From NCBI GenBank assembly GCA_963810935.1, contig CAWEPK010000007.1:1-64000 (forward strand): a DNA stretch of 64,000 bases, written 5' to 3'. Source of the stretch: an uncultured delta proteobacterium (GTDB lineage: Bacteria; Desulfobacterota; Syntrophorhabdia; Syntrophorhabdales; WCHB1-27). Of this stretch, positions 37,330 through 56,762 are shown one piece after another (within the stretch, counting starts at the first letter, position 1; each line of letters begins with the position of its first letter). The translations under genes and the position numbers were made by a program. The notes under the pieces were generated by a model, which ran no database searches, had not been told where the DNA came from, and saw only the letters and a program-made list of their open reading frames with translations.

Positions 37330-37475
37330 CCGGCGGACTTCGTTCGGGCCGCCGGTCTTCACCCTCACCCAGCCCTCTCCCCTCAAGGGAGAGGGAAATC
37401 AGGCTTGCCTGCCGTTTTTCTCCGCCTGCGCAATTATTGGGGATAGCGTCGCCCCCTCCACGAGCGAAGCTCGTA
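37330..37475. repeat. Cluster of REP-like hairpins between the beta and gamma genes
   Basis: CCGGCGG...CCGCCGG; CCCTCACCCAGCCCTCTCCCCTCAAGGGAGAGGG; ACGAGC-GAA-GCTCGT. Confidence 0.6.
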
Positions 37476-37507
37476 GAGCCTCCCCCTCATAAAAAGGAAG
37501 AAACATT

Positions 37508-41436: not shown

Positions 41437-42128
41437 CTAATACCTTCGAAATAATGAGGGAACGTATAAATACCGTTTACCTGCAACCAAAAACCCCTTC
41501 TGCCGTCCGGGGCCTCATACTCTCTGCTTAGCCCTAATCGAATGAATACCCTTTCCTGGGCTCGTATGAAGTCACTTAGATCGCCCACCCTGCCGGCGTC
41601 GGACTTTTTTAAAGCATAATTATAGAACCCCAAATCATTAATCGGCAGATACCGGAACGCTTTGCCCGCCCCGTCGGTGAAAATAGCCCTTATCCTGCCT
41701 TCATTATAATCATCGGCGACTATAGTTAAATTTGTGGGAGCAACTCGGAGCGTGATGATGGAAATCCCAGGGGCCTTCTCCTTTGGAATGTATTTCTGCT
41801 TATCATCAAAGACAGGGCCGAATCCTTCCTCCACGGAATCAGTCTGCGTTGCTTCAAGGATCTTCTCAAACACTTCCGAGCTGCAAGGCCCCACGAAAGT
41901 TAACGGCCCGGAATATATTCGATCTTCGGAATGAGGGTTCGCCGAGGGAATTGGCTTAAAAGTCCCTCTCATAATGGCGCCCGGAAGGATGTTTAATCTT
42001 TGGCATTCCTTGGTTGTGAGGTATGGCATCGGTCTGACGCATTCATTTGTCAGTGGGTTGATGCCGGCAATGCAGACTACGTCCGGCCTGTTGAATCGCG
42101 TGAGGTCGGTAATTACAATATCCATCAT
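41421..42128 (-). CDS. Dual-OB-domain-like protein
   Basis: IVITDLT...VCIAG....CVRP...HSED...YLPINDL...IRLGLSR...WLQVNGI pattern; overlaps the DUF488 gene. Family recognised from memory. Confidence 0.6.
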   Translation of the reverse strand: MMDIVITDLTRFNRPDVVCIAGINPLTNECVRPMPYLTTKECQRLNILPGAIMRGTFKPIPSANPHSEDRIYSGPLTFVGPCSSEVFEKILEATQTDSVEEGFGPVFDDKQKYIPKEKAPGISIITLRVAPTNLTIVADDYNEGRIRAIFTDGAGKAFRYLPINDLGFYNYALKKSDAGRVGDLSDFIRAQERVFIRLGLSREYEAPDGRRGFWLQVNGIYTFPHYFEGIRCHQR

Positions 42129-42364
42129 CCCTGAACCGGACCGGCTGATCCGTCGGTCCTTCCCTCTTCTCTAAGGACGGGCGGCCGACCGCGCCGCTTA
42201 GTGATATCTTATGTCAGATTATACATCATTTAAAAAGATGAGTGTACAGCTTTTGATGCGCCGGGGCATCAATAATTCACAGACGGTTAAGATGTCTCGG
42301 CAGTGCGAAACCGTGCTATCATACGTGTATGCCGGAAAGACAAGCCGCTGTTGAGGAGGGGAGC

Positions 42365-43015
42365 ATGAAGGGAGGGAGAGGCAAATCTAACGGAAGATGG
42401 ATCGATGTCTCGATGCCCGTGCGGACGGGGATGGTCATTTATCCGAGCGACTCGCCGGTCACGGTGGAGCGCACGTCGGACGTCGCCAAAGGGGACCGCG
42501 TGACTCTATCTCGCGTCTCTATGGGGGTGCACGCAGGCACGCACGTGGACGCCCCGCTCCATTTCCTGCAGGACGGCGTGTCCATCGACCGCGTTCCCCT
42601 GGAGCGGCTCGCAGGGACGGCAAGGGTCGTCCACGTGCGTGAAGGGCAATCGATCGGCCTTGACGCTGTGGAAGGCGCGGACATCCAGGCGGGCCAGATG
42701 GCCTTTTTCAAGACGCGCAACTCGGCGCTCCTGCGCCTCGACCGCTTCGCCGAGGATTACGTATACCTGTCGGCTGCGGCCGCCCGGCGGCTCGTGGAGA
42801 TAGGCGTAGCCGCGGTCGGCATAGATTATCTCTCAATAGACGGCTACAGGCACGGCACGGACGCGCACATGACGCTCCTTACGGCTTCCGTGCCGGTGAT
42901 AGAAGGGCTCGATCTTTCGGACGTAGGAGCAGGCCTATACGACTGCGTCTGCCTGCCGTTGCGACTGGAAGGCGCCGAGGCGGCGCCGGCAAGGGTAATC
43001 GTGCGGGCAAAATAG
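42365..43015 (+). CDS. Cyclase family (kynurenine formamidase-like) metal hydrolase
   Basis: HAGTHVDAPLH, VGIDYLSID, IEGLDL, CLPLRL.GAEAAPARV; GAGGAGG RBS. Confidence 0.9.
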   Translation: MKGGRGKSNGRWIDVSMPVRTGMVIYPSDSPVTVERTSDVAKGDRVTLSRVSMGVHAGTHVDAPLHFLQDGVSIDRVPLERLAGTARVVHVREGQSIGLDAVEGADIQAGQMAFFKTRNSALLRLDRFAEDYVYLSAAAARRLVEIGVAAVGIDYLSIDGYRHGTDAHMTLLTASVPVIEGLDLSDVGAGLYDCVCLPLRLEGAEAAPARVIVRAK

Positions 43016-43053
43016 CGGCCGGGACCTTTTCGCGGCCCCCGCCTGTCTGAAGC

Positions 43054-45111
43054 TCACCCCGCTTTCCTGATACTGCACAGCAGCCCCTTCCACTGGGGAT
43101 ACCCCATGATAGGCTCCCTGGCCTGGCAATCGGTCAGGAGGTTGCAGTTGGCATCTTTCGGCCAGCCGTGGGGGACGAGGACGACGCCTTCCATGATCCT
43201 CTCGTCAACGTGCGCCTTCATCTTTACCTGTCCCCGGTCGGTCTCGACTATGACGTCGTCGCCGTGGGTGATGCCGTACTTCGAGGCGGTATCCGGCCCT
43301 ATCTCCGCTTTGGGGAAGGGGGACCATTTCTGGAGGGACTTGATGTTGTGGAGCATCGTGCCGTTGAAGAAGAAGTCGCGCGTGCCCGTTGAAAGGACTA
43401 GGGGGTATTTCTCCCCAAGCTCGGCCCAGCGCACCCCTTGCGGGCTTTTGTCAGGCTCCCGGTAAGTGGGCATGGGGTCCCAGCCTGCCTGCTCGAATGC
43501 CTCGCTGTATATCTCTATCTTCCTGGTGGGCGTAGCGAAGGAGCGCGGGTCGAGTGCATAATCCTTCGGCTGGTAATGGATGCCTTCGGGTGCGTCGAGG
43601 AGGGTCTGGAAGTCTATGCCTGAAGATTCAAGCTCCAGGGCAACCACCTCTTCGTCCGATTTCCAGGGGAACTTGTCGCCGAAGCCGCAGCGGTTCGCAA
43701 GCTCGGTATATACCTCCCGGATCGACTTGCACTCGTGGTACTGCGGAAGGAGGGGTTTCCTGAGCATGAGGTACGGCAGGCAGTGGCAGACGTTGTAGTT
43801 GTAGGCAAGCCCCCAGAACTCGAACTGGTTCGACGCAGGCAGGACGTAGTTGGCGAACTCGGCCGTCTCCGTCATGAACTGCTCGTAGACGACAACGAGG
43901 TCGAGCTTACTGAACGCATCGCGGAGCGCATTCGAATCGGGCATCGTGACAAGGGGGTTGCCCCCGGCTACGATAAAGGCGCGTATCTTGTCGGGCACGC
44001 TCTCCGGCACCATGTTCATGACTGCATAAGGGCTCGTCCTTCCCCAGAGTGTATAGAAGAGGGGGTATTCGTCGGCTCCCAGCGGCTTGCCGGGGAAAGG
44101 CAGGCTTACGTCGGTAAGGCGCAATCTCGGGCTGATGACCCACCCGCCGGGCACGTTGATGTTGCCTGTGAGTACCTGGAGGATGGCCATCGCCCGGTCC
44201 GTCTGGCTCCCGTTTGCGCACTGGTCCTGCGTGCAGGTGCCGTGGAAGATGGATGCCCCTTTGGTGGTGGCGAAGCGGCGGGCAAGGATGCGGATGTCGG
44301 AGGCCTTCACGGAGGTGATCTTTTCCGCCCACTCCGGCGTGTACTGCTGCACGTGGGGGACCAGCTTATCGAAGCCGTAGGTCCATTTCTCGACGAACTC
44401 CTTGTCGTAGAGGTTCTCGTTTATCATGACGTTCATCAGGGCAAGGGCGAGCGCCCCGTCCGTCCCCGGCCTTATGGCGAGGTACATCTCCGCGCGGTCG
44501 GCTATGGCGAGCCTCCTCGGGTCGATGACGATCACCCTCGCCCCCTTCTTGATATTCTCTTCCATAGCCAGGGCAAGGGGGAAGTCGGACGCGGAGGGGT
44601 TATGGCCCCAGAGTAGATAGAGGTTGGAGTCCATCTCTTCGACCGGGTATTTCCCGAAGGTGATCTGACGCGCCCTGATGCGCATACGGTAGCAGATGCT
44701 CTCGACCGAGAAGAAGTTGGGCGACCCGAGGGCTGCCTTGAACCTGTGGGTGAGTGAGATCATCTCCAGGTTCTCAACGCCGATGGAGCCGCAGAAGAAC
44801 GCGACAACGGAGGGGCCGTACTTTTCTTTCAGCGCGTTCAGCTTTTCTGCGATCTCCGAGAACGCCTGCTCCCAGGAGATGCGTATCCAGTCGCTGCCCT
44901 CTTTCTTGAGCGGGTATTTGAGCCTGTCGGGGTGGTAGAGGTGCTCGATTGCGGCCTGTCCCTTCGCACAGAGCCTCCCCTTGTTGAGGGGGTGCGATTC
45001 CTGGCCGCGCACTGCTATGGCCTTCCCGTCCTTGACAGTGACTTCCATGCCGCAGCTATGGTAGCAGAGCGCGCATCCCGTGAAGCCCGTTATCGTGTCG
45101 CTATCGGTCAT
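43054..45111 (-). CDS. Cytoplasmic molybdopterin (DMSO-reductase superfamily) oxidoreductase with N-terminal [4Fe-4S]
   Basis: CxxCxxxC...LCAKG, HPDRLKYPL, WGHNP, IRPGTD, ADY-like ANYVLP, C-terminal molybdopterin-dinucleotide domain; no Tat signal. Confidence 0.9.
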   Translation of the reverse strand: MTDSDTITGFTGCALCYHSCGMEVTVKDGKAIAVRGQESHPLNKGRLCAKGQAAIEHLYHPDRLKYPLKKEGSDWIRISWEQAFSEIAEKLNALKEKYGPSVVAFFCGSIGVENLEMISLTHRFKAALGSPNFFSVESICYRMRIRARQITFGKYPVEEMDSNLYLLWGHNPSASDFPLALAMEENIKKGARVIVIDPRRLAIADRAEMYLAIRPGTDGALALALMNVMINENLYDKEFVEKWTYGFDKLVPHVQQYTPEWAEKITSVKASDIRILARRFATTKGASIFHGTCTQDQCANGSQTDRAMAILQVLTGNINVPGGWVISPRLRLTDVSLPFPGKPLGADEYPLFYTLWGRTSPYAVMNMVPESVPDKIRAFIVAGGNPLVTMPDSNALRDAFSKLDLVVVYEQFMTETAEFANYVLPASNQFEFWGLAYNYNVCHCLPYLMLRKPLLPQYHECKSIREVYTELANRCGFGDKFPWKSDEEVVALELESSGIDFQTLLDAPEGIHYQPKDYALDPRSFATPTRKIEIYSEAFEQAGWDPMPTYREPDKSPQGVRWAELGEKYPLVLSTGTRDFFFNGTMLHNIKSLQKWSPFPKAEIGPDTASKYGITHGDDVIVETDRGQVKMKAHVDERIMEGVVLVPHGWPKDANCNLLTDCQAREPIMGYPQWKGLLCSIRKAG

Positions 45112-45143
45112 GATGAAGCCTCCTGAACCGGGTTTGCGCGCTG

Positions 45144-45995
45144 CTACTTATAGTCGTAGAACCCTTTGCCGACCTTCCGCCCGAGCCAGCCGGCCGTCAC
45201 CATCTTTCTCAGGAGGACAGGCGGGGCGTACTTGGTCTCTTTCGTCTCCTCGAAGAGGCTTTCCGCTATGGAAAGCTCCGTGTCTAGGCCTATAAAATCT
45301 ATGACTTCGAGGGGCCCCATCGGATGGTTTACGGCAAGCTTCATCGATATGTCGATTTCGTCTCTTGTCGCGATGCCTGCCTCCAGCATCCTTATGGCGC
45401 CCAGCAGAAATGGCGTAAAGAGCCGGGTAACGATAAATCCGCCCACATCAGGGGCCACGACCATGGTCTTTCCTATGGTGGCCGCCCATTTCCGGACCGC
45501 TTCTATGGTCTCTTGGCCCGTCATGATCGTTTTCACTACTTCGAGAAGCTGCATGACGGGGGCGGGATTGTGGAAATGCATGCCGATTACCTTGTCCGCC
45601 CTTTTCGTTGCGACGGCCATGTCGGTTATGGAGAGGCCGGAGGTGTTGGAGCCGAATATCGTCTCCGGCTTGCAGACGGCGTCCAGCGCAACAAAGGTCT
45701 TCTTTTTCAGCTCCAGGTCTTCCGGAATCGCTTCCTCGATGAGGTCGCAGTCTTTCAGGTCCTCTATCCGGGTGCTCGTCCTGATCTTTGCCATCATCGC
45801 GTTTTTGTCCGCCTCGGACAGCTTGCCCTTCTCGACGCGTCCCATAAGACGCTTGTCGATGCCCTTCAGGCCTTTCGCGAGCATCGCCTCGCTGGAATCG
45901 ACGGCCACGACATCATAACCCGCCTGGGCAAAGACCTGGCCGATTCCCGCGCCCATCTGACCGAACCCGATGATCCCCAGCTTTTTGATGTCCAT
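45144..45995 (-). CDS. 3-hydroxyacyl(butyryl)-CoA dehydrogenase
   Basis: GFGQMGAGI, EAIPE, SNTS, GMHFHNP, HPMGP, G.LGRK.GKGFY. Confidence 0.92.
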   Translation of the reverse strand: MDIKKLGIIGFGQMGAGIGQVFAQAGYDVVAVDSSEAMLAKGLKGIDKRLMGRVEKGKLSEADKNAMMAKIRTSTRIEDLKDCDLIEEAIPEDLELKKKTFVALDAVCKPETIFGSNTSGLSITDMAVATKRADKVIGMHFHNPAPVMQLLEVVKTIMTGQETIEAVRKWAATIGKTMVVAPDVGGFIVTRLFTPFLLGAIRMLEAGIATRDEIDISMKLAVNHPMGPLEVIDFIGLDTELSIAESLFEETKETKYAPPVLLRKMVTAGWLGRKVGKGFYDYK

Positions 45996-46064
45996 AAGTC
46001 CTCCTTGTGGTAAGGTCCGCGCAAGGAAAGCGGACCAGGGGCGTTTTCGCCCGCCCGTGCCTTA

Positions 46065-47705
46065 TTAAGAAAGTCCCAGTTTCTGCTTGATGTCTTTTCT
46101 CAAAGCTTTTTTATCGTGTTTCCCGGCTTCCGTCAAGGGCAGGCTGCCGACTACCTCGAACCTCTCCGGTACGAGCAGCTTCGATGCCCCGTGGGATTCC
46201 ATGTAAGCCTTTATAGCCTCGACGTCGAGGATAGCGCCGGGAGCGGGCCGCACGTAGGCACAAACTATTTCGCCGAGGTTCTTGTCCGGCATCCCGATCA
46301 CCGCTGCGTCCGCAATACCGGGGACGGCCAAAAGCATGTCCTCGACCTGTCCCGGCGAGATGTTCTCGCCGCCTCTGATGATTATGTCCTTGATCCTCCC
46401 GGTGATCGTCACGTAACCCTCGGCGCTTATCCGCGCCTGGTCGCCCGTCCTGAAAAAGCCGTCTTTCGTGAAGCTGCTTGCGGTCGCTTCCGGGTTCTTC
46501 AGGTAGCCGCCGAATATGCCGGGCCCCTTCGCCACCAGCTCTCCGTCCGTGCCGGGGGGCAGCCCCTCCCCGTTTTCGTTTACGACCTTGACCGTCTCGT
46601 AGGGGCAGCACGGCTTGCCGACGGTCGAGCAGATCGTATCGACGTCATCGGTGAGCCGCGAGCGGCAGAGCAGCCCTTCCGTCATACCGAACTCGTTCAC
46701 GTACGTGCACTTCAGCTTGCGGTAGACCTCCCGGATCAAATCCGGCGTGCTCGGCTCGCCCCCGCCAAGGATCTTCTTGAGCGAGCTTAAATCGTACTTA
46801 TCGAAATCGTCCATCTGCATGATCCTCCGCGTGAGGCTGGGGACCATCGGCACGTAGGTTACCTGTTCTTTCTGTATCGTGGCGCAGATATCCGCAGGCT
46901 TCGTCGAGTCGAGGAGGACCAGCTTGTACGCGTGGAACATCGCGCCCACTACATTGAGGAGCGCCAGATTGTGGCCGACGGGGACGACGACAAGGCCCGC
47001 GTCGCCGGGGCCGACCTCCCACCCCTTATGGTTATATTCGACATTGCAGATGTAATCGTTGTGCGTGCGGGGGATGCCCTTCGGCATGCCGGTGGTGCCG
47101 CCGGACGGTATCACGTGGGCAACGTCTTTCGGGTCGGGCCGGCAGGCCGCGAGTTTTTCGAGGTCGGCGGGAGTTACACTCCGCTGAAGCAGCGCCTCAA
47201 GGGTCGCGGTGAACGGGCTGCCTCCTGCACTCCTCACGGAGATCACGTGTTTCAGGCACGGGTTCTGCTTGAGCACGTCGCCGATGAAGCTCGTCGTGTA
47301 ATCGGTCTTACGGTAAGCGGCAGGCACGATCCACGCCTTTGCCTGCGTAAGGTTGCACATATGGCTCGTCTCTAGCAGGCCGAAACCCGAGATACAAAGG
47401 ACGGGGACGGCCCCGATTTTTTGCAGGCCGAAAAAGGCGTAAACGTATTCCGCCCAGTTCGGCAACTGGAGGAGCACGCAATCGCCCTTGCCGATGCCCA
47501 GGTCGAGAAAGCTCAAGGCGAGCCGGTTGGCCCCTTCCCTGATCTCCCCGTATGTGAGGCGCGACCTGTCATCGACAACGCCCTCCCTGCCGGGAAATAC
47601 GTCGGCCACGCGGTCGAGCACGTCCCCCAGGGTAAGCCCCATCCACCAGCGTAACTTTTCATATTTTGCTACGTCGTCCGCTTTCCAAACCGGTATGCTA
47701 TCCAC
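46065..47705 (-). CDS. Aryl/acyl-CoA (AMP-forming) ligase, DhbE/EntE-like
   Basis: SGGTTGMPKGIPRTHNDY, FGMTEG, RTGD, IIRGGENI. Confidence 0.88.
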   Translation of the reverse strand: MDSIPVWKADDVAKYEKLRWWMGLTLGDVLDRVADVFPGREGVVDDRSRLTYGEIREGANRLALSFLDLGIGKGDCVLLQLPNWAEYVYAFFGLQKIGAVPVLCISGFGLLETSHMCNLTQAKAWIVPAAYRKTDYTTSFIGDVLKQNPCLKHVISVRSAGGSPFTATLEALLQRSVTPADLEKLAACRPDPKDVAHVIPSGGTTGMPKGIPRTHNDYICNVEYNHKGWEVGPGDAGLVVVPVGHNLALLNVVGAMFHAYKLVLLDSTKPADICATIQKEQVTYVPMVPSLTRRIMQMDDFDKYDLSSLKKILGGGEPSTPDLIREVYRKLKCTYVNEFGMTEGLLCRSRLTDDVDTICSTVGKPCCPYETVKVVNENGEGLPPGTDGELVAKGPGIFGGYLKNPEATASSFTKDGFFRTGDQARISAEGYVTITGRIKDIIIRGGENISPGQVEDMLLAVPGIADAAVIGMPDKNLGEIVCAYVRPAPGAILDVEAIKAYMESHGASKLLVPERFEVVGSLPLTEAGKHDKKALRKDIKQKLGLS

Positions 47706-47741
47706 TATGTACCCCTCCTTAGTAATAGGCGGCCTGTCTTC

Positions 47742-48926
47742 CTAGAGAAGCTCCTCGTTGAACTGGGCCGCCCGCGCCCCCTTAGGGAGGAAAGGTTCGG
47801 GCGCCGTGACGGTTCCTTCCGGCCATCTGGTGCAGTTCACTTTTTCATAGCGTGAGTCGGCTTCGAGGCACCAGTTGCACGCAGCGCACCTCACGATCTC
47901 GTTGTCTCTGCCTTCCTTCGCCTTCACGGGCCAGTCGGGGTCGCACAAAAGGGCGCGGCAGAGGCCGATGATGTCGGCCTGCCCTTTTTCGAGTATCTGC
48001 TCCGCATGGTCGGGGTTCCTGATCTTGCCGGCAGTAATGACGGGCGTGTTAAGCCCGGCGTCCTTTATAGCCTGCCTGATGCCGTCCGCGAGGAAGACGT
48101 GCGTTCCGTCGGGCCACCAGAACCACGGGCTCATGCGGTGGCCGCTGTAGCCGGACATCGGGTCGGGCGGGTTACCCTCGGCAGGCACGACGGCGTCCTC
48201 GAACCTGCTCCCTGCCGAGACGCTTATATAATCGGCCCCCAGCTCCGCAAATTTTCGCCCGATCCTCGCGCTCTGGGCGAGGGTATTCCCGGTCACGTGG
48301 TAGTCTTCGCCGTTTATCCTGACGCCGAGGGGGTAATTTTCCCCGACGACTGCACGGACTGCCTGAAATACCTCGATGGGCAGCTTCATGCGCTTATCAA
48401 GGCTTCCCCCGTAACCGTCGATCCTGTGGTTGACGCGGGAGAGGAAGGAAGAGAGCACGTAGGCATGGGCCATGTGCACCTCGATGAACTCGAACCCTGC
48501 GGCGAGCGCCCTTTTGGCAGCGGCGACGTGGTCTTCGACGATCTTCGACAGCTCCTCGGTCTTGAAGTCCTCGACCTTCTGCCTCCAGCCTGTCTTGGAG
48601 AGCTTCAGGTGCTGCATGATCTGGATGCCTATCTTCGTTTCCTTGTTCGCGTCGCGTATCGTCTTCACCACTTCCTTGAGGCCGGGAAGGTACTCGTCGC
48701 TGCTGATCCTCAGGTTGAACGGGCTTTTCGAGGGTATAATCACCGCCGCCTCGACGACGATCGAGCCTACGCCGCCCCTGGCTTCCCTGGCGTATCTAAG
48801 TTTCAGCTCTTCGGTGACAGCGCCGTCCTCCGTGGAAAGGCCGGAGACCATCGAGGTCCTATGCAGTCTGTTGGGAAAAACTACGCCGCGCACGGTTATT
48901 GGCTCGAACAGCTTGGGGAACTTCAT
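47742..48926 (-). CDS. Old-yellow-enzyme family flavin oxidoreductase with C-terminal Cys cluster
   Basis: KLFEP, ARGG.G, EVHMAHAY..SSFLS, N.R.D.YGGS, DPDWP.K, CAACNWC...C. Confidence 0.88.
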   Translation of the reverse strand: MKFPKLFEPITVRGVVFPNRLHRTSMVSGLSTEDGAVTEELKLRYAREARGGVGSIVVEAAVIIPSKSPFNLRISSDEYLPGLKEVVKTIRDANKETKIGIQIMQHLKLSKTGWRQKVEDFKTEELSKIVEDHVAAAKRALAAGFEFIEVHMAHAYVLSSFLSRVNHRIDGYGGSLDKRMKLPIEVFQAVRAVVGENYPLGVRINGEDYHVTGNTLAQSARIGRKFAELGADYISVSAGSRFEDAVVPAEGNPPDPMSGYSGHRMSPWFWWPDGTHVFLADGIRQAIKDAGLNTPVITAGKIRNPDHAEQILEKGQADIIGLCRALLCDPDWPVKAKEGRDNEIVRCAACNWCLEADSRYEKVNCTRWPEGTVTAPEPFLPKGARAAQFNEELL

Positions 48927-49007
48927 CTCCTCCTCCTTATTTTACCTGCAATCTCTTTTCCCGTTTGAATAACCAGGATCAGGAAAACCGGTGCGTGATA
49001 TATATAA

Positions 49008-49787
49008 TCATCTGCCTTTGAAGACAGGTTTCCGCTTCTCCAGGAAGGCCGAGAGGCCCTCCTCGGCATCCTCCGAGTTTGCGACCCGGTCGTATAGCTC
49101 CAGCTCGAATCTGAGGGCCTCTTCTACGGGAAGCTCGACCCCTCTATCGACGGCCGTCTTGCACGCCTTTATCGAGAGGGGCCCGCAGGACTCAATCTTC
49201 TTCGCCAGGCCCTCCACCTCGGCCGTGAGCGTATCGCCGCTGCATACCTTTTCGACGAGCCCGAACCGAAAGGCCTCCTCCGCGTTAAGGAGAACCCCGG
49301 AGAAGAGCATATACTTGGCCCGGCCGGGCCCGACGAGCCTGGGCAGTAACTGGGTGCCCCCGTAACCTGCCAGGACGCCGAGGGTCGCTTCCGGCAGACC
49401 GAACCGCGCGTTCTCCGACGCGATCCTCAGATCGCAGGCAAGGGCAAGCTCGCAGCCCCCGCCGAGGGCGTAGCCGTTGACGGCCGCGATAACGGGCTTG
49501 TCGCACGTCCTGATCTTAGACAAGACATGCTGCCCGGCGGTGATGAAGGCGGTCCTTCCCTTCCTCGCGTCTTTGATCTCCTTCACGTCTGCCCCGGCAA
49601 CGAAGGCCTTCCTCCCCGCCCCGGTGACAACGACCACGGAGACGCCGTCGTCCTTTCCGATGTCGGTGAAAATATCGTCGAGCCTTTTCATGATGCGGCC
49701 CGTCAGTGCGTTGAGCGCCTCCTGCCTGTCAATCGTCAGGTAGACTACCCCGCCTTCGCGTTTTACAATGACCTGTCCCTCGTCCAT
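49008..49787 (-). CDS. Enoyl-CoA hydratase/crotonase
   Basis: AFVAGAD, AVNGYALGGGCELALACD, FGLPE (both catalytic Glu present), EKRKPVF. Confidence 0.93.
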   Translation of the reverse strand: MDEGQVIVKREGGVVYLTIDRQEALNALTGRIMKRLDDIFTDIGKDDGVSVVVVTGAGRKAFVAGADVKEIKDARKGRTAFITAGQHVLSKIRTCDKPVIAAVNGYALGGGCELALACDLRIASENARFGLPEATLGVLAGYGGTQLLPRLVGPGRAKYMLFSGVLLNAEEAFRFGLVEKVCSGDTLTAEVEGLAKKIESCGPLSIKACKTAVDRGVELPVEEALRFELELYDRVANSEDAEEGLSAFLEKRKPVFKGR

Positions 49788-49881
49788 TCATCGCCTCCGC
49801 GGTTTTTTCTACGCTCGCTTATTATGCCGCACGATGAAGATCTTTTCCAGGAATGCGCGATGCCTCCCGTGACGCCCGTTA

Positions 49882-49902
49882 CCGGTTCTCCCTATGAACC
49901 GG
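49882..49902. promoter_or_regulatory. Candidate IclR operator for the catabolic operon
   Basis: CCGGTTC-N7-GAACCGG just downstream of a minus-strand TTGACA-17-TAATAA promoter (49951-49923). Confidence 0.5.
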
Positions 49903-50035
49903 CGATCCACTTCATGAACTGATTATTACAACGGCCGCCTCCACTTGTCAACAAAAAAGTAAACCGGCATGCCGGAACACATATATCCCTCTTTTCTTAT
50001 TGACAACCACACCCCGTTCGCACTATACCTCATGC

Positions 50036-50833
50036 ATGGCTGAAAAATTCATCAGGTCCGCCGAAAGAACCCTTCAGATATTGAGCGCTTTCGCTCCCGA
50101 CAGGTTACAGATGGGCCTCACCCAATTATCGGAAGTCCTCGGCCTGTCGAAGGCTACCGTCCTCAGGCTCGCCTCTACGCTGTGCAAGCACGGGTTCCTG
50201 AGCCAGGACCCCGTCACGAAGCATTACTGCCTGGGACTGAAGCTCTTTGAGCTGGGGGGCCTCGTCTATGCCTCCTTCTCATTGCGGACCACCGCTTCTT
50301 CGCACCTGCGCCGCCTCCAGGCGAGGGTCGATAAAACGACATTCCTCGGTATCATGGACGGCGACGATCTGCTTTACATTGACAAGAAAGAGAACCCGAT
50401 GAACGTTATCCGGTTCGCCTCGAACATAGGCTTCCGCCGGCCCCCGCACTTCGGCATGCTCGGCCAGGTGCTCATGGCGCACATATCCGAGGAGAGGGTC
50501 CAGGCGCTCCTGCAAAAGTCCCCGCTCACGGCTTTCACGAAGAAGTCGATCACGTCCGGCCAGGTCTTCAAGGAGACACTGAGGAAGGTAAAGAAACAGG
50601 GATACTCCGTTGATGAAGGGATCGCCATTGAGGGCATCGGCGGCGTTGGGGCGCCGCTGCGCGATTTTACGGGCGCCGTTGTCGCTGCCATCGGCGTAGG
50701 GTTCATGGTCTCTTCCGTCGACAGGAAAGAGTTGAAGCGGTTGATTAAGGAGGTCGTCGAGGCGGCTGCGTCGATCTCCCGGGAGCTGGGATACCCCGGC
50801 CACGGCAGCGGCGAGAGGGGCGCCACGAACTAA
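50036..50833 (+). CDS. IclR family regulator
   Basis: SAERTLQIL..HTH (LSKATVLRL), Y.LG.KLFELG, GQVLMA, GVGAPL. Confidence 0.92.
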   Translation: MAEKFIRSAERTLQILSAFAPDRLQMGLTQLSEVLGLSKATVLRLASTLCKHGFLSQDPVTKHYCLGLKLFELGGLVYASFSLRTTASSHLRRLQARVDKTTFLGIMDGDDLLYIDKKENPMNVIRFASNIGFRRPPHFGMLGQVLMAHISEERVQALLQKSPLTAFTKKSITSGQVFKETLRKVKKQGYSVDEGIAIEGIGGVGAPLRDFTGAVVAAIGVGFMVSSVDRKELKRLIKEVVEAAASISRELGYPGHGSGERGATN

Positions 50834-51094
50834 AGGCACAGGGCGCAGCGAATGATTTCGTAAAAGACTGCAACGACATCCAACTGATCCAATCGCGGGA
50901 GGAGAAGATCGTCTAAAATTTATGTTGACAAGAATTCCGGTTTCATTATATGAACTAACGGTGCATGTAATGCACCGGCCTTTTGTGCATTGCGCAGTTG
51001 ATAAGAAACAAGCCGCTTGATAACGGGCGACCTTGCCGCCGGGTTGTGGATACCCGGACCCGCGAGGAGCGAACGCCTGCCGAAGGGGGACTTT

Positions 51095-51577
51095 ATGAAG
51101 CGATTTTTCGGGGCTGTTGTGAGGGTCAACTCGTGGATGCAGGCCGTGGCCGCAATCGCGCTCACCCTGATAATCTTCCTGACCACGGTCGATGTCCTGG
51201 CCAGGATCGTCGGAAGGCCGATACCGGGCGCCGTCGAGATCATCGCGATCCTCGGCGGAGTGGTGGCCGGGTTTACCGCGCCCGTCACCTCCTGGATGAA
51301 AGGCCACATCCAGGTCGATTTCCTTCTCAATGCCCTTCCGAAATGGGCAAGCAACCTCGTCGAGACGGCAACGCGCTGCGTGGCGATCTTCCTCTGCCTG
51401 CTGATCGCCTGGAACTCTCTTAAGATAGGTGCGGACTTTTTTGACAAGGGAGAGGTATCGGGCACCCTCCTTATACCGCTCTTCCCCGTCTGCTACGGCC
51501 TTGCGGCGTGCTTTCTCATGCTGTCGATTGTACTGGCATGCGATATCATGAAAATTTTCGGAGGAAGCGATGAGTGA
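51095..51577 (+). CDS. dctQ: TRAP transporter small permease
   Basis: 4 TM segments; DV.AR...PIPG..E, HIQVD. Confidence 0.88.
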   Translation: MKRFFGAVVRVNSWMQAVAAIALTLIIFLTTVDVLARIVGRPIPGAVEIIAILGGVVAGFTAPVTSWMKGHIQVDFLLNALPKWASNLVETATRCVAIFLCLLIAWNSLKIGADFFDKGEVSGTLLIPLFPVCYGLAACFLMLSIVLACDIMKIFGGSDE

Positions 51578-52872
51578 GGTTACGGTAGGCTGCATAGGTC
51601 TGGCGCTTTTGCTTCTCCTCTTCTTTACGGGCCTCGAACTTCCCTTTTGCATGATGTTGGTCGGCTTCGCCGGCTTCACGTACCTCGTCAACTTCAGGGC
51701 GGCCACCCACATGATGGCGAAGGACGTTTACGATATTTTCGTCTCATACGGATACACGGTGTTCCCGCTCTTTATCTTCATGGGGCAGATCGCCTTCGCT
51801 TCGGGAATGGCGAAGAAACTTTATGACAGCGCCTACCGCTTCCTTGGGCACATCCCCGGCGGCCTCGCGGTCGCTACGGTCGGGGGCGCCACGGCGTTCA
51901 AGGCCCTGTGCGGCTCGGCGGTCGCCACGGCGGCCACCTTCAGCAACCTGGCCATCCCGGAGATGGAGCGGTACGGTTACAGCCGCACCCTCTCTACGGG
52001 CCTCGTCGCCATAGTGGGAACCCTGGGCTGCCTCATGCCTCCCACGATCTTCCTCATCATTTACGGTCTCATTACCGAGCAGTCGATAGGCATGCTGTTT
52101 TTGGCGGGCATCATTCCCGGCCTGGGGATCGCCTGCCTCTTCGTCCTGACAATTTATCTGTGGGCCCGGATCAACCCGGCGCTGGCGCCGGCAGGCCAGA
52201 GATCGACCTGGAAGCAAAGGTTCGCTTCGCTTCCCGAAGTCGCCATCGTTCTGATAGTCTTCGCTCTCATGATAGTGGGCCTCCTGAAAGGCTTCTTCAC
52301 CCCCACCGAGGCGGGCAGCGTCGGTACGATGGTCGTGCTGATAATGGTCGTCGTAAGGAGGCAGGCTCGGCTTCAAGGGCTACGTAAAGGCGATAGGAGA
52401 GGCGATGCGGACGGCCTTCATGATCCTGATGCTGATGGCCGGCTCCGCGATCCTCGGCCACTTCATAACCATCACGAATATCCCGCAGATCATGGCCGAC
52501 TGGTCCTCGAACCTGCCCCTCAACAGGAACCTGATACTGATCCTCATCTGTTTTATCTACTTAATCGGCGGCTCGTTCATCGACGATCTGGCTTTCATGG
52601 TCCTCGCGACGCCCATTTTCTTCCCTGTGGTGACCAAACTCGGCTTCGATCCGATATGGTTCGGCATCATGGTCGCCGTCACCGTCATGATAGGCATCGT
52701 CATCCCGCCCGTAGCGGCGAACGTCTTTATTGTCCACAAGCTTACAAACACCCCTATGCTCACCGTTTACAAAGGGGTGGTGCCGTTCCTTACGGGCATA
52801 GTCGTTTTTGCGGCGCTTCTTTTCATATTTCCCCAGCTTGCCCTTTTTCTCCCCAATTACCTGATGAAATAG
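51570..52872 (+). CDS. dctM: TRAP transporter large permease; apparent +1 indel at ~52365
   Basis: PLFIFMG, PGGLA, GS.VATAA, PEM..YGY, FTPTEA, GFDPIWFG, PPV..NVF. Confidence 0.88.
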
Positions 52873-52930
52873 AGGGCAAGGCACAGGTGAGTGAGGCCTG
52901 ACGGCCAACTATAACTGCAAGGAGGAGTAA

Positions 52931-54007
52931 ATGGGAAGAAAATTGATGTTATTCGTGATGCTCGCTGTAATGTTCGGTGTTGTAGCCGGCACGCCCGGCC
53001 ATGCGCAAGCTCAGGCCACGATCAAGATGAAGTTCAGCAACCCGCATCCCATGACCTTCTCCTCCGCGCCCGTCATGCTCGCCTTCTGCCAGGAGATAAA
53101 GAAGCGGACGAACGGGAGGGTCGAGATCACCCATTACGCGGGCGGCGTCCTTACCACCTTCCCCAAGGCATATGACGGGATCGTCAACCAGGTTTCCGAC
53201 ATCGGCCAGAGCCACGTCGGCTACACGCGCGGCCGCTTCCCTGTGACGGAGATCCTCGACCTGCCCGTCGGCTATTCAAGCGGGTTCGTCGCGAGCCACG
53301 TCAAGTGGGACTTCTACAAAAAGTACAAGCCGAAGGAATGGAACGACGTCCATGTCCTCTATATGTGGTCGGTCGGCCCGCAGATCTTCGCAACGACCAA
53401 GAAGCCCCTCCATAAATTCGAGGACCTGAAAGGCCTTAAGATCAGGGGCACGGGGCGGCCCGCGGATACGATCAAGGCCCTTGGAGCGGTGCCTGTAGCC
53501 CTGGAGATGGGCGACGTCTATGACTCCGCGCAGAGGGGGCTACTCGACGGCATGTACGACGCGATGGAGACCTGGAAGGGCTTCCGCCTCGGCGACGTCA
53601 TGAAGTACGGCTACCTCACGCAGCAGGGCACGGGCTCGATATATACCTTTTACGTAGCAATGAACAAGGAGCGCTGGAACGCGCTACCCCCGGATATAAA
53701 AAAGATTTTCGACGAAACCTCGGAGGAGTGGGTTGACAGGCATGCGACCACTACCCTTGAGGCGGACTTCGCCGGTCTGAGTTACCTCAAGCAGCGTGGC
53801 GGCCAGATGCTGCCGATAGCCGATTCGGAGATCGCCAAAATGAAGAAGGCCGTCGAGCCGGTCATAGATGGCTACGTGAAGGACATGGAACGTAAAGGCT
53901 ACAAGAAAGCGGAGATGGAAGACCAGTTGAATTTCATCCGCGAGCGCATAGCCTATTGGTCAAAGCAGGAGAAGGACAGGAAGTTAAAGACCCCTTACGT
54001 GCAGTAA
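52931..54007 (+). CDS. dctP: TRAP substrate-binding protein
   Basis: Signal peptide; TNGRV, DLKGLKIR (conserved Arg), LGAVPV, MNKERWNALP. Confidence 0.92.
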   Translation: MGRKLMLFVMLAVMFGVVAGTPGHAQAQATIKMKFSNPHPMTFSSAPVMLAFCQEIKKRTNGRVEITHYAGGVLTTFPKAYDGIVNQVSDIGQSHVGYTRGRFPVTEILDLPVGYSSGFVASHVKWDFYKKYKPKEWNDVHVLYMWSVGPQIFATTKKPLHKFEDLKGLKIRGTGRPADTIKALGAVPVALEMGDVYDSAQRGLLDGMYDAMETWKGFRLGDVMKYGYLTQQGTGSIYTFYVAMNKERWNALPPDIKKIFDETSEEWVDRHATTTLEADFAGLSYLKQRGGQMLPIADSEIAKMKKAVEPVIDGYVKDMERKGYKKAEMEDQLNFIRERIAYWSKQEKDRKLKTPYVQ

Positions 54008-54013
54008 GGTAAT

Positions 54014-54039
54014 GATCGGGCCCCGGAAGGGGCCCGATC
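54014..54039. terminator. Hairpin between convergent genes
   Basis: GATCGGGCCCC-GGAA-GGGGCCCGATC, a perfect 11-bp stem. Confidence 0.7.
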
Positions 54040-54050
54040 CCGGTATAGTC

Positions 54051-55013
54051 TTATTTGCGCGCGATCAGGCCCAACAGGTTCCCGCTCGCGATCATTTCCT
54101 TCTCGGCCTGCGGTAGGTCCACCTGTTGCAGCGTCCGCAGGCTCCCCTCCATCCACTCCACGCCCTGCCTCGGGCCAAAGGGGTAGTCGGTGGCAAAGAC
54201 GATCTGCTTCGGGCCGAAGAATTTGTAGCCGCATTCGAGGGCGTGGAGCGAACCGTTCAGCACCATGTCGCCGTAAAACCTCTTGAAGTAGACAAGGGGG
54301 TCGTCCGGTGTGAATTTGAAATTGGACCGGGGGAACATCGACCGTGCGTCATAGAACCCTTTGATACGCTCGGAGAAATGGGGCAGCATCCCGCCCATAT
54401 GGTGCGTGATGATCCGGAGGTCGGGGTAATCGTGCATTATGCCGGAAAAAACGAGCCTGGTCAGAGCGACGCTCGTCTCGTAAATCCAGCCATAGGTCTT
54501 GTCTATGACGAACTCGTTGGTATCGCCCTGTACCTGTGGATGGAGCCAGACGGGTGTCTTCGTATCGTTCATCCTGGCCCAGAAAGGCCTGAACTCCGGA
54601 GAGTCCAACGGCTTGCCGTTGATATTGCTGACTACCTGGATGCCGGCCATGCCTAGCTTGTTGATGCAGCGGTCGACCTCCGGCAGGCACTTCTCGGTCG
54701 GCAGCGCGATGTGGCCGATGGGATAGAACCGTCCCGGATACGCGGCTGCCTCCTCCGCCACCGCGTCGTTCGCCAATATATTCAGCCGCTCCGCCTCGTC
54801 ATCCGGCATCTTCATCCATATGCTCGGCCGGGCGATACAAAGTACTTGCTTGTCGATCTTGTGCTCGTCCAGGTCCTTAATCTTCTTCTTCATGTCGCCT
54901 AGATAGGCCAGGGCCAGCGACTCCTTCGACTCCAGGGTAGGATACGTCTTGAGCAGCTCCTCCAGGAACCTGCGGGGCATAATGTGTCCGAATCCGTCGA
55001 TGATCATTCCCAT
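54051..55013 (-). CDS. Amidohydrolase_2 family protein (ACMSD/LigW-like decarboxylase or hydratase)
   Basis: AND..A, WLHP, GW.YETS, HHMGG, FATDYPF, GN...L. Confidence 0.9.
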   Translation of the reverse strand: MGMIIDGFGHIMPRRFLEELLKTYPTLESKESLALAYLGDMKKKIKDLDEHKIDKQVLCIARPSIWMKMPDDEAERLNILANDAVAEEAAAYPGRFYPIGHIALPTEKCLPEVDRCINKLGMAGIQVVSNINGKPLDSPEFRPFWARMNDTKTPVWLHPQVQGDTNEFVIDKTYGWIYETSVALTRLVFSGIMHDYPDLRIITHHMGGMLPHFSERIKGFYDARSMFPRSNFKFTPDDPLVYFKRFYGDMVLNGSLHALECGYKFFGPKQIVFATDYPFGPRQGVEWMEGSLRTLQQVDLPQAEKEMIASGNLLGLIARK

Positions 55014-55446
55014 GTTGTCCTCCCGTCGTTTAGTTGGTCACAGTCCTCAAACCGTGCCTTGTGATTCTGCATAGATGAGAAAACCCGCCCCGGCCGCTGC
55101 TATAGCCTTTCCCGCAAAATCCCGAATCGGGACCGGCACGCCGGTGACGCCGTCTATGGCTATGCCGTCAGCGATCAGGGACCCTCCCTGCCGTATCCTT
55201 ATGGAGCCTTCTCCGGCCTGCCCCCAATCATTGTACCACTCTCAGAGTCAGACTTCCTCCCATTTGACCGCTAATTCCTGAATTCTCGTGTTATAATTGA
55301 CTGCACGAAGCTCCGGAAGTGGAAGGACAAGCTCCCGCTACCGGACAAACCGGACTCGGCGTACAAGGAAGGAAGCAGGAAGAATTGGCCATCCGTTCGA
55401 GTTTTAAGGCAAGCAAGGAAAAAAACATTTGGTTACGGAGGTCCCT

Positions 55447-56454
55447 ATGAAGATAGACATTTTCAACCACATCTTCCCCAAGCCTTTTTTCGAGAAGATG
55501 GTCAAGACAGCGCCCAAGGGAAAGGATATGCACAAGCGGGTGAGGGAAGTCCCCTCGATAGTCGATCTGGACGACCGCTTCCGCCGCATGGACGAGTTCG
55601 GCCCGGATTACAGGCAGGTCATCTGTATCGCCTCCCCGCCTATCGAGGTGTTCGGTCCTCCCCCGGTCTCTACGGACATGGCAAAGCTGGCCAATGACGG
55701 CATGGCGGAGCTGGTCGCCAAGCACCCCGACCGCTTCCTCGGCTTTGTCGCATCACTGCCCATGAACGACCCGGAAGGCCTTCTGAAAGAGGCAAGGCGG
55801 GCCGTGACCGAGCTTGGCGCCGTGGGCGTCCAGATATTCACGAACGTCCTCGGCCGGCCGCTGGACAAGCCCGAGACGATGCCGCTGTTCGACCTCATGG
55901 TGGAGCTCGACAGGCCCATATGGATGCACCCTGCCAGGGGGGCGGACGTCCCAGACTACAAAAGCGAGCCGAAGAGCCACTACGAGATCTGGTGGACCTT
56001 AGGCTGGCCTTACGAGACGAGCGTAGCCATGGCCCACCTTGTCTTTTCGGGCCTTTTCGACCGCCTGCCTGCGGTCAAGATCATAACCCACCACCTCGGA
56101 GGCATGATCCCGTACTTCGAGGGAAGGGTCGGCCCCGGATGGGACCAGCTAGGCACGAGGACATCCGACGAGGACTATTTCGCACTGCTGAAGCAGCTCA
56201 AGAAACGGCCGCTCGATTACTTCCACATGTTCTACGCGGACAGCGCGGTCTTCGGCTCTATGGCCGCAACCATCTGCGGCCTTGAGTTCTTCGGGGCAGA
56301 CCACGTGCTCTTCGCCTCGGACTCCCCCTTCGATCCGGAAAAGGGCTCGGCCTACATAAGGTGGACAATCGATATCATAGATAAGCTGCCCATCAGCGAC
56401 AAGGAGCGCTACGCGATCTATGAAGGGAATGCACGGAAGCTGCTGAAAATATAG
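55447..56454 (+). CDS. Amidohydrolase_2 family protein
   Basis: IDIFNH, ANDGMA, WMHP, GWPYETS, HHLGG, FASDSPF, GNARKLL. Confidence 0.9.
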   Translation: MKIDIFNHIFPKPFFEKMVKTAPKGKDMHKRVREVPSIVDLDDRFRRMDEFGPDYRQVICIASPPIEVFGPPPVSTDMAKLANDGMAELVAKHPDRFLGFVASLPMNDPEGLLKEARRAVTELGAVGVQIFTNVLGRPLDKPETMPLFDLMVELDRPIWMHPARGADVPDYKSEPKSHYEIWWTLGWPYETSVAMAHLVFSGLFDRLPAVKIITHHLGGMIPYFEGRVGPGWDQLGTRTSDEDYFALLKQLKKRPLDYFHMFYADSAVFGSMAATICGLEFFGADHVLFASDSPFDPEKGSAYIRWTIDIIDKLPISDKERYAIYEGNARKLLKI

Positions 56455-56524
56455 CAGGACCGTACCGGCCTGAACGGGATAACCCTTACCACACGATCTC
56501 AGGTTCGGTCAGTCCGTCAAGAAA

Positions 56525-56683
56525 ACGGACGCGCACCTGACCTTCCTTACGGCTTCCGTGCCCGTGATGGAAGGGCTAGACCTGTCGGAAGCAGAGGCGG
56601 GCCTGTACGAGTGCGTCTGCCTGCCCCTGCGGCTGGAAGGTGCGGAGGCTGCTCCGGCGATGGTGATCGTGCGGGCAAAGTAG
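56525..56683 (+). pseudogene. Diverged duplicate of the cyclase gene 3' end (direct repeat of 42857-43015)
   Basis: Ungapped 159-bp match, reading TDAHLTFLTASVPVMEGLDLSEAEAGLYECVCLPLRLEGAEAAPAMVIVRAK*. Confidence 0.9.
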
Positions 56684-56762
56684 GGGCCGGGATTCCTCCC
56701 CCGCGATGAATGTTAACATTCGCAAGTGCGATCAAAGAAGCAAAAGGGGAGGTGCCTTGATA

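What the first reader, a model, noticed from the sequence alone, without database searches (positions are those of the whole stretch)
43054..56454. Candidate undescribed anaerobic pathway for a substituted (hetero)aromatic acid
Seen: one operon of crotonase, OYE reductase, DhbE-like ligase, hydroxyacyl-CoA dehydrogenase and a cytoplasmic Mo/W enzyme, divergent from IclR and a TRAP transporter, plus two amidohydrolase_2 genes. Known: amidohydrolase_2 includes aromatic-acid decarboxylases; OYE-type aryl-CoA reductases dearomatise without ATP (2-naphthoyl-CoA reductase); DMSO-reductase-family enzymes include catechol dehydroxylases and transhydroxylase. Inference: import, decarboxylation, CoA activation, (de)hydroxylation, reduction and beta-oxidation of an unknown substrate. 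I do not recognise this combination as a named pathway. No thiolase is present.
Basis: partly seen in the sequence, partly recalled or inferred. Interest (0 to 1): 0.75.

Follow-up and report, generated by a model that had tools for sequence, protein, structure and literature searches.

The report
Candidate anaerobic gentisate breakdown genes
This is a gene set, conserved among oxygen-avoiding bacteria, that likely takes up gentisate (a dihydroxybenzoic acid), likely attaches it to coenzyme A, and is predicted to break its aromatic ring system with a flavin enzyme and remove a hydroxyl by running fatty-acid-oxidation enzymes backwards, which would supply candidate genes for a long-uncharacterised reaction.

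Summary
The genes are real. Crotonase, short Fe-S old yellow enzyme (OYE), DhbE-like ligase and hydroxyacyl-CoA dehydrogenase (HAD) recur together across Desulfobacterota: among 27 well-flanked OYE loci, ligase 25, HAD 18, crotonase 13, thiolase 0. The Mo enzyme is accessory (10/27). The window's two amidohydrolases are not part of the module (0/27).

Syntrophus gentianae records carry crotonase, OYE and ligase with near-consecutive accessions. Between them lies a phenylphosphate-synthase-like kinase, amidohydrolase and phosphatase block. S. gentianae is recalled, not read, as the hydroquinone/gentisate fermenter. A review calls that pathway's carboxylase and gentisyl-CoA reductase uncharacterised.

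Best reading: gentisate import, gentisyl-CoA formation, OYE reduction to 2,5-dioxocyclohexanecarbonyl-CoA, then HAD and crotonase run in reverse to remove the 2-oxygen. This explains the missing thiolase. Substrate about 65%; substrate plus mechanism about 50%. No enzyme was tested.

A sister long-OYE + RidA module reuses the same crotonase/HAD. The dctM frameshift is an assembly error. The cassette sits between duplicated cyclase 3' ends.

The parts
49008..49787 (-). Crotonase (true hydratase type, Glu113 and Glu133 kept); predicted dehydratase step
   Evidence: Pfam ECH_1; motifs; 65% to the S. gentianae-named P0166
47742..48926 (-). Short old yellow enzyme, 394 aa, HMAHAY site, CxxCxxC-x11-C (predicted 4Fe-4S), no FAD/NAD domain; predicted aryl-CoA reductase
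   Evidence: Pfam Oxidored_FMN; Cys347/350/353/365 invariant in 23 of 23 aligned sequences; 68% to P0121; model and fold search
46065..47705 (-). DhbE-like aryl-CoA ligase with Asn246 (DhbE Asn235) and Glu338 (DhbE Val329); likely gentisate-CoA ligase
   Evidence: 63% to P0183
45144..45995 (-). 3-hydroxyacyl-CoA dehydrogenase; predicted to run as a beta-ketoacyl-CoA reductase
   Evidence: NF005875 324.9 bits over cut-off 319; 79% to the HAD of L081
43054..45111 (-). Cytoplasmic Mo/W-bisPGD enzyme of the acetylene-hydratase-like group; accessory, role unassigned
49886..49951 (-). Promoter-like site (TTGACA-18-AATAAT, 11/12) overlapping near-matches to the TTCA-N5-TGAA dyad
50036..50833 (+). IclR regulator
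   Evidence: orthologue in 10 of 27 loci
50942..50954 (.). Palindrome TTCATTATATGAA upstream of dctQ, candidate IclR operator
   Evidence: only exact TTCAT-N3-ATGAA in the 4.06-Mb assembly; exact dyad before the crotonase in 6 of 24 relatives, background 0.011 per 260 bp
51095..51577 (+). TRAP small permease DctQ
51570..52872 (+). TRAP large permease DctM; apparent frameshift at 52364 is an assembly error
52931..54007 (+). TRAP binding protein DctP
   Evidence: best PDB hits 4n6d, 4pgn, 4nap (their aromatic ligands are recalled, not shown by the call)
54051..55013 (-). Amidohydrolase_2 A; passenger, not conserved with the module
55447..56454 (+). Amidohydrolase_2 B; passenger, beside the module only in the sister species
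42857..43024 (+). Left copy of the 168-nt repeat (3' end of the cyclase gene 42329-43015); left cassette boundary
56525..56692 (+). Right copy of the repeat (orphan cyclase 3' end); right cassette boundary

Best explanation
The crotonase-OYE-ligase-HAD operon with its IclR and TRAP genes is a conserved module that likely imports gentisate (2,5-dihydroxybenzoate), likely ligates it to CoA, is predicted to reduce gentisyl-CoA with the Fe-S old yellow enzyme to 2,5-dioxocyclohexane-1-carbonyl-CoA, and would then remove the 2-oxygen by running the dehydrogenase and crotonase in reverse. The product would be 5-oxocyclohex-1-ene-1-carbonyl-CoA (formally benzoyl-CoA + H2O), which would feed the host's benzoyl-CoA route; how the second oxygen leaves is not resolved. 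Shown: gene content, conservation, pocket residues, shared operator-like dyad, presence in S. gentianae records. Inferred: substrate and every reaction. The Mo enzyme is an accessory gene. The two amidohydrolases are passengers. This genome lacks the hydroquinone-activation block of its relatives, so it would use gentisate, not hydroquinone.
For: (1) S. gentianae records: crotonase WP_093882469, PPDK_N ..471, amidohydrolase ..472, HAD phosphatase ..473, OYE ..476, ligase ..477, all on a 211,184-bp contig. The hydroquinone/gentisate idea was on record. (2) L081 (G104), whose proteins are 100% identical to 7 of those records, has the order crotonase-membrane protein-PPDK_N-amidohydrolase-phosphatase-unknown-PEP-utiliser-OYE-ligase-HAD-MFS. 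In G104 this is the only DhbE-like ligase at E<=1e-60 and the only PEP-utiliser beyond the two shared with all 5 genomes searched; no UbiD was found. The OYE is in 2 of 7 genomes of that genus. (3) The known route is hydroquinone carboxylation, gentisate-CoA ligation and oxygen-sensitive reductive dehydroxylation, with carboxylase and reductase uncharacterised (PMC3727088, passages). (4) Ligase: Asn246 + Glu338 in 31 of 38 short-OYE-linked ligases; window and P0183 in one clade (SH-aLRT 99, quick tree). The equivalent Asn binds a ring hydroxyl and the equivalent Val lines the pocket base (PMC11661926, passages). (5) Precedent: 2-aminobenzoyl-CoA monooxygenase/reductase yields 2-amino-5-oxocyclohex-1-enecarbonyl-CoA, and a CoA ester matching cyclohexanedione-carboxyl-CoA was seen in cells (PMC3534580, passages). 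(6) A sister long OYE is followed by RidA in 11 of 13 fetched loci, then by crotonase (59-61%) in 4 and HAD (76-80%) in 2 of them. This genome has copied HAD+Mo behind its own long OYE-RidA. This fits a shared keto intermediate. (7) Thiolase in 0 of 27 well-flanked loci. (8) The host has Oah over cut-off.
Against: No activity or expression data. That S. gentianae is the hydroquinone/gentisate fermenter of Gorny and Schink is recalled; only reference titles were seen. It is the only cultured species named among the hits listed, so the link rests on one organism. The review says both hydroxyls leave in one step and the enzyme is probably membrane-associated, whereas this scheme is stepwise, uses soluble-looking enzymes and explains only one oxygen. 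The Val replaced by Glu338 is 3.5 A from ring C4, not C5, which fits 2,4-dihydroxy- or 4-amino-salicylate at least as well. Crotonase is missing from 14 and HAD from 9 of 27 well-flanked loci. The window's ligase is only 63% identical to P0183 and sits on a long branch (0.41), so specificity may have shifted. Five of 38 short-OYE-linked ligases have Ala and two have Gly in place of the Glu.
Confidence: 0.5

Rival explanations
1. Gentisate is the substrate, but the chemistry differs: for example OYE reduction followed by hydrolytic ring opening and forward oxidation, or re-aromatisation to 3-hydroxybenzoyl-CoA, or dehydroxylation by an unlinked membrane enzyme with the OYE acting later.
For: The review describes one-step removal of both hydroxyls by a probably membrane-associated enzyme. 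An unannotated hydrophobic protein lies in L081 and L036. Crotonase and HAD are not always linked.
Against: The crotonase keeps both hydratase glutamates. No thiolase travels with the module. Benzoate is the reported product, which argues against direct ring opening.
Confidence: 0.17
2. The module handles another 2-hydroxybenzoate (salicylate, 2,4- or 2,3-dihydroxybenzoate, 4- or 5-aminosalicylate) by the same reduce-and-dehydrate logic.
For: Asn246 only indicates a hydroxyl next to the carboxyl. Glu338 replaces a residue next to C4. Best PDB ligase hits are salicylate and 2,3-DHB enzymes. Window and S. gentianae ligases are 63% identical.
Against: It leaves G104 without another DhbE-like ligase, kinase or UbiD carboxylase for hydroquinone. 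Both ligases share the pocket residues examined.
Confidence: 0.2
3. The substrate is a heteroaromatic acid (furoate, picolinate, pyrrole- or thiophene-2-carboxylate), hydroxylated as a CoA ester by a Mo enzyme and then reduced.
For: Xanthine-dehydrogenase-family genes, AOR and UbiD occur beside some copies. DhbE-like ligases for ortho-heteroatom acids are known (recalled).
Against: XDH is in 5, AOR in 3 and UbiD in 1 of 27 loci. L081 has none of these and no Mo enzyme. The kinase-amidohydrolase-phosphatase block points to a phenolic substrate (inference).
Confidence: 0.08
4. One reading: the window's amidohydrolases decarboxylate, the Mo enzyme (de)hydroxylates, then reduction and forward beta-oxidation, all as one pathway.
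For: All the genes lie inside one repeat-bounded cassette. Amidohydrolase B is also beside the module in L009. The Mo enzyme is co-transcribed by spacing.
Against: Amidohydrolase orthologues are in 0 of 27 loci and lie elsewhere in the other genomes that have them. There is no dyad in their 433-bp gap. Their best PDB hit is an uncharacterised hydrolase, 3ij6. Mo homologues occur mostly without the OYE.
Confidence: 0.05

Closest known systems
Anaerobic hydroquinone/gentisate pathway (Desulfococcus Hy5; fermenting bacterium of Gorny and Schink 1994)
   Same: Carboxylation, CoA ligation and oxygen-sensitive reduction match the gene content of L081; the window has the ligase-reductase half.
   Different: The carboxylase and reductase are described as uncharacterised. 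The reported reductase is one-step and probably membrane-associated. The window's genome lacks the kinase/carboxylase block.
2-Naphthoyl-CoA reductase (NCR, PDB 6QKG)
   Same: OYE barrel with an Fe-S motif, predicted to reduce an aryl-CoA without ATP; highest query TM-scores listed, 0.73-0.74.
   Different: 394 versus 714 aa, no FAD domain, 25-26% identity; predicted monocyclic dihydroxy substrate.
2-Aminobenzoyl-CoA monooxygenase/reductase (Azoarcus evansii, Arthrobacter Rue61a)
   Same: Reduction of a 2,5-disubstituted benzoyl-CoA to a 5-oxocyclohexene or cyclohexanedione CoA ester. The OYE hits the related NF006101 model at 6e-50.
   Different: That enzyme needs O2 and is a fusion with a monooxygenase; here the OYE stands alone in an anaerobe. 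The score is far below the cut-off (170 versus 1078).
Phenylphosphate synthase/carboxylase of anaerobic phenol degradation (recalled)
   Same: Relatives carry a split PPDK_N + PEP-utiliser kinase and a HAD phosphatase.
   Different: An amidohydrolase_2 replaces the UbiD carboxylase. The block is not in the window.
DhbE/EntE/CahJ aryl adenylation enzymes
   Same: Best PDB hits; His-Asn motif kept.
   Different: Below the TIGR02275 cut-off (377 versus 723.55), two-residue loop deletion, Val329 to Glu, no NRPS or carrier gene among the cluster's genes.
Acetylene hydratase (PDB 2E7Z)
   Same: Best PDB hit of the Mo enzyme, E 6.7e-87; Cys ligand and 4Fe-4S motif kept.
   Different: The position of the catalytic Asp13 (role recalled) is Tyr17.

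Membership tests
Gentisyl-CoA (hydroquinone) pathway | Present in the organism known to use the pathway and missing from congeners | tested here: met
   Named S. gentianae records; OYE in 2 of 7 genomes of the genus, completeness not given. The organism's physiology is recalled.
Gentisyl-CoA (hydroquinone) pathway | Ligase pocket suited to a 2-hydroxy and a distal hydroxy group | tested here: inconclusive
   Asn246 kept; Glu338 polar but its equivalent is nearest C4.
Gentisyl-CoA (hydroquinone) pathway | Gentisate-CoA ligase and gentisyl-CoA reductase activity; induction by gentisate | not testable with these tools
   Needs assays or transcriptomics.
Gentisyl-CoA (hydroquinone) pathway | Hydroquinone activation/carboxylation genes in this genome | tested here: not met
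   No phosphatase, membrane-protein or 224-aa orthologue; kinase subunits only 29-33% in another cluster.
2-Naphthoyl-CoA reductase | FMN barrel plus 4Fe-4S plus FAD domain, about 700 aa | tested here: not met
   394 aa, Oxidored_FMN only; 25-26% identity.
Fe-S old yellow enzymes | His-x-x-His-x-Tyr site and C-terminal four-Cys motif | tested here: met
   HMAHAY 151-156; four Cys invariant. Cluster binding itself is untested; pLDDT is low there.
DhbE/EntE siderophore adenylation enzymes | TIGR02275 cut-off; hydrophobic pocket base; carrier-protein partner | tested here: not met
   377 < 723.55; Val329 to Glu; no partner gene.
Acetylene hydratase | Asp13 in the Fe-S motif | tested here: not met
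   Tyr17 at that position.
Formate dehydrogenase | His after the Mo-binding Cys/Sec (recalled); TIGR01591 cut-off | tested here: not met
   SICYR; 349.7 < 666.25.
Pyrogallol transhydroxylase | Close similarity and an Fe-S beta-subunit gene (recalled) | tested here: not met
   No transhydroxylase among 41 PDB hits at E<=1e-20; no such gene beside it.
Catechol dehydroxylases (Dadh/Cadh/Hcdh) | Phylogenetic placement with the characterised enzymes | not tested
   No tool returned these sequences.
Aromatic-acid decarboxylases (LigW, gamma-resorcylate, ACMSD) | Close similarity and first metal ligand (E/H-x-H, recalled) in the window's amidohydrolases | tested here: inconclusive
   Best hit uncharacterised 3ij6; decarboxylases at 1e-25 to 1e-30; N-terminal motifs read FGH and FNH.

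The most novel reading that the evidence does not exclude
This is the lower half of the orphan hydroquinone/gentisate pathway: ATP-independent dearomatisation of a single benzene ring by an old yellow enzyme, and molybdenum-free dehydroxylation by reverse beta-oxidation. 2,5-Dioxocyclohexanecarbonyl-CoA would be an oxygen-independent hub also fed by a long-OYE + RidA module for amino-aromatics. In relatives, a phenylphosphate-synthase-like kinase coupled to an amidohydrolase ortho-carboxylase would be the missing hydroquinone carboxylase.
Probability: 0.35. Interest if true: 0.86.

Novelty: new variant of a known kind. Interest (0 to 1): 0.72.

Why it matters
Anaerobic hydroquinone and gentisate degradation was measured in 1994, and a 2013 review still calls its carboxylase and reductase uncharacterised. 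This module gives named, cloneable candidates in a cultured species (WP_093882469-477). If right, it extends OYE-type aryl-CoA reduction from two-ring to one-ring substrates and adds a way to remove phenolic hydroxyls without a Mo enzyme. It also gives a marker for turnover of lignin- and plant-derived phenolics by syntrophic and sulfate-reducing bacteria: 24 of 101 related genomes have an OYE match, short or long form.

Tried and rejected
Cyclase (KynB-like) as a pathway gene: 0 of 69 OYE loci; it is the insertion site. The same-genus genome G001 has cyclase, one other gene and the outer-membrane factor with no cassette.

A dead transporter: rejected, the extra base is missing from contigs of 4 of 4 runs. 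The HAD+Mo copy on C10 as an assembly artefact: disfavoured by 23 differences in 2986 bp, a contig in X2 leaving the window at 43030 with the C10 flank, and about twofold contig depth there (summed contig depth is a weak measure).

Mo enzyme as the core dehydroxylase and amidohydrolases A/B as pathway decarboxylases: rejected as above.

No RNA holder was listed. ESM Atlas: no usable hit for the 224-aa unknown; only generic OYE clusters for the OYE. Structure prediction (pLDDT 78) and fold search confirm the OYE barrel but not the substrate. Earlier scan findings: none.

No tree of the Mo enzyme with characterised dehydroxylases was built. The ligase tree is the quick version; the careful search did not finish, and it used only ligases aligned over at least 450 residues at 40% or more. 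Three reviews or primary papers asked for by id were not held. Gorny and Schink 1994 and the S. gentianae species description were not read. No supplements were opened. No complex prediction was run.

Counts use 69 of 71 loci (OYE at least 55% identical); 27 of these have at least 8 kb upstream and 6 kb downstream.

Full report
Observation. The window's genes are as described: crotonase, OYE, DhbE-like ligase, HAD and a Mo-bisPGD enzyme on the minus strand with gaps of 32-81 bp, divergent from IclR and dctQMP. The two amidohydrolases form a divergent pair at the right end. dctM carries one extra base at 52364; contigs of 4 of 4 laid runs (one study) lack it, as does the 95%-identical relative L009, so it is an assembly error. 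A 168-nt repeat of the cyclase 3' end (84% identical) brackets 43025-56524. The same-genus genome G001 has the site without the cassette, and L009 has the module among other neighbours. The unit therefore moves as a block. The closest named OYE relatives come from Syntrophorhabdaceae, Syntrophorhabdales and other deltaproteobacterial MAGs.

What is conserved. A scan with the OYE gave 71 loci. Of 69 with at least 55% identity, 27 have long flanks. In these 27: ligase 25, HAD 18, a different amidohydrolase 14, crotonase 13, PEP-utiliser 12, HAD phosphatase 11, Mo orthologue 10, IclR 10, xanthine-dehydrogenase family 5, AOR 3, thiolase 0, window amidohydrolases 0, cyclase 0. Mo homologues at 60% or more occur in 35 of 101 relatives, 25 of them without an OYE match. 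They sit in varied contexts, including three unrelated ligase-crotonase-OYE-HAD modules. The Mo enzyme is thus accessory. It lacks the acetylene hydratase Asp13 and does not reach any NCBIfam cut-off shown. A dyad TTCAT-N3-ATGAA occurs exactly once in the assembly, upstream of dctQ. Three one-mismatch TTCA-N5-TGAA sites lie in the 248-bp crotonase-IclR gap (genome rate 0.044 per 200 bp) and none between the amidohydrolases. Exact dyads precede the crotonase in 6 of 24 relatives. The motif was picked from the window after the fact and those six relatives are close kin, so this is moderate support for co-regulation.

Substrate. Many relatives insert a block before the OYE: PPDK_N, amidohydrolase_2, HAD phosphatase, an unknown 224-aa protein and a PEP-utiliser. 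It resembles phenylphosphate synthase (recalled) with an amidohydrolase in place of UbiD, suggesting ortho-carboxylation of a phenol. With a ligase that keeps the 2-hydroxyl-binding Asn, this pointed to hydroquinone to gentisate (noted). The test was whether Syntrophus gentianae, recalled as the hydroquinone/gentisate fermenter, carries it. It does: OYE P0121, ligase P0183, and accessions WP_093882469, 471, 472, 473, 476 and 477 on one contig. L081 (G104), identical to 7 of those records, shows the full order, ending OYE-ligase-HAD-MFS with no Mo gene. In G104 this cluster holds the only DhbE-like ligase and the only extra PEP-utiliser, and no UbiD was found. Two of 7 genomes of the genus have the OYE. 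A review (PMC3727088, passages read) gives the route as carboxylation to gentisate, CoA ligation and oxygen-sensitive removal of both hydroxyls, with carboxylase and reductase uncharacterised. The window's proteins match L081 at 65% (crotonase), 68% (OYE), 64% (ligase) and 79% (HAD). Asn246 and Glu338 are shared by 31 of 38 short-OYE-linked ligases, including P0183; all 9 long-OYE-linked ligases have Gly for the Asn. Against gentisate: the residue replaced by Glu is 3.5 A from C4 in FbsH (PMC11661926, passages), so 2,4-disubstituted acids fit too, and the physiological anchor is a single species whose substrate range I recall and did not read.

Mechanism (inferred). The OYE has the His-x-x-His-x-Tyr site and four invariant Cys but no FAD domain. 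Its 863-aa paralogue on C10 adds an Fe-S and pyridine-nucleotide oxidoreductase module, so the short form likely takes electrons from a partner through its cluster. Two electrons on gentisyl-CoA would give 2,5-dioxocyclohexane-1-carbonyl-CoA, a beta-keto thioester. The aerobic anthranilate enzyme offers a precedent: its product is 2-amino-5-oxocyclohex-1-enecarbonyl-CoA, and a cyclohexanedione-carboxyl-CoA-type ester was detected in cells (PMC3534580, passages). HAD in reverse would give the 2-hydroxy ester, and the crotonase (both catalytic Glu kept) would dehydrate it to 5-oxocyclohex-1-ene-1-carbonyl-CoA. No carbon is cleaved, so no thiolase is needed. Removal of the 5-oxygen is open; SDRs (9 of 27 loci), tautomerases or the Mo enzyme are candidates. 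The host has Oah and thiolases to finish. Supporting convergence: the long OYE is followed by RidA in 11 of 13 fetched loci (one is cut by the contig end, one is a different paralogue), then by the crotonase in 4 and HAD in 2. This genome has a 99.2% copy of HAD+Mo behind its own long OYE-RidA. An amino analogue, reduced and deaminated, would give the same diketone. Against: the review reports one-step, probably membrane-associated dehydroxylation, and crotonase and HAD are often unlinked.

Comparison and novelty. It works like NCR and like the reductase half of 2-aminobenzoyl-CoA monooxygenase/reductase, but fails membership of both, and of DhbE and acetylene hydratase. Searches found no paper assigning genes to this pathway. 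The library lacks most subscription journals, so prior description is not excluded. PMC10608942 (passages) and bioRxiv 2022.07.29.502009 (reference list) added only reference titles.

Verdict. A real, conserved, mobile catabolic module. Gentisate is the most likely substrate (about 0.65); the full reduce-reduce-dehydrate scheme stands at about 0.5. New variant of a known kind; interest 0.72, because it makes a 30-year-old orphan pathway directly testable in a cultured species.

Noticed in passing
L001/L002 (G000:C10:122158-137245): Sister cluster: ligase, XDH M/S/L, 863-aa OYE with an Fe-S/NAD(P) oxidoreductase tail, RidA, and a 99.2% copy of the window's HAD+Mo; probably for an amino-aromatic acid.
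   Followed up: partly
L081:5013-18017; L036:2288-15566: Kinase (PPDK_N + PEP-utiliser), amidohydrolase_2, HAD phosphatase, a 224-aa unknown and a 352-aa hydrophobic unknown: candidate hydroquinone carboxylation system.
   Followed up: partly
window 42857-43024 and 56525-56692: Duplicated cyclase 3' end (17 synonymous, 8 non-synonymous codon differences) bounds the cassette; no integrase gene among its annotated genes.
   Followed up: yes
G000 whole genome: About 20 related TRAP systems, 5 DhbE-like ligases (49-52% to the window's, plus itself) mostly beside XDH-family genes, and many XDH FAD subunits: a large unexplored aromatic-acid repertoire.
   Followed up: no
L100, L101, L103: The same Mo enzyme (64-78%) sits in an unrelated ligase-crotonase-long OYE-HAD module, suggesting a general accessory role.
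   Followed up: partly
L084:8538-16795 (G000:C8): Another PPDK_N + PEP-utiliser pair beside two FAD-dependent oxidoreductase-like genes and an AOR-like gene; substrate unknown.
   Followed up: no
L012, L015, L017, L018, L044: After the ligase: a DUF362 protein and a 4-oxalocrotonate tautomerase, often with a 42-45% Mo paralogue, TetR, FdhD-like and ARMT1-like genes.
   Followed up: no
L037, L040-L042, L045, L047, L048, L051, L056, L058: In Binatia-type loci the OYE lies divergent from XDH genes and sometimes next to UbiD.
   Followed up: no
L076:5621-6088: A 50%-identical OYE fragment at a contig end in a Ferroglobus MAG, near a PPDK_N-like gene.
   Followed up: no
G086:C13:8561-12682: An amidohydrolase B orthologue (79%) lies next to a Mo homologue (63%) in a genome without the OYE.
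   Followed up: no
window 23427-24521: Third amidohydrolase_2 gene in the window (26-34% to A and B).
   Followed up: no
window 36720-39912: 2-Oxoacid:ferredoxin oxidoreductase-like genes whose alpha subunit appears split across several ORFs, possibly further assembly frameshifts.
   Followed up: no
window 40353-42128: Lower-GC island of three small genes (two DUF488-like by recall) between those genes and the cyclase; G001 has only one of them.
   Followed up: no
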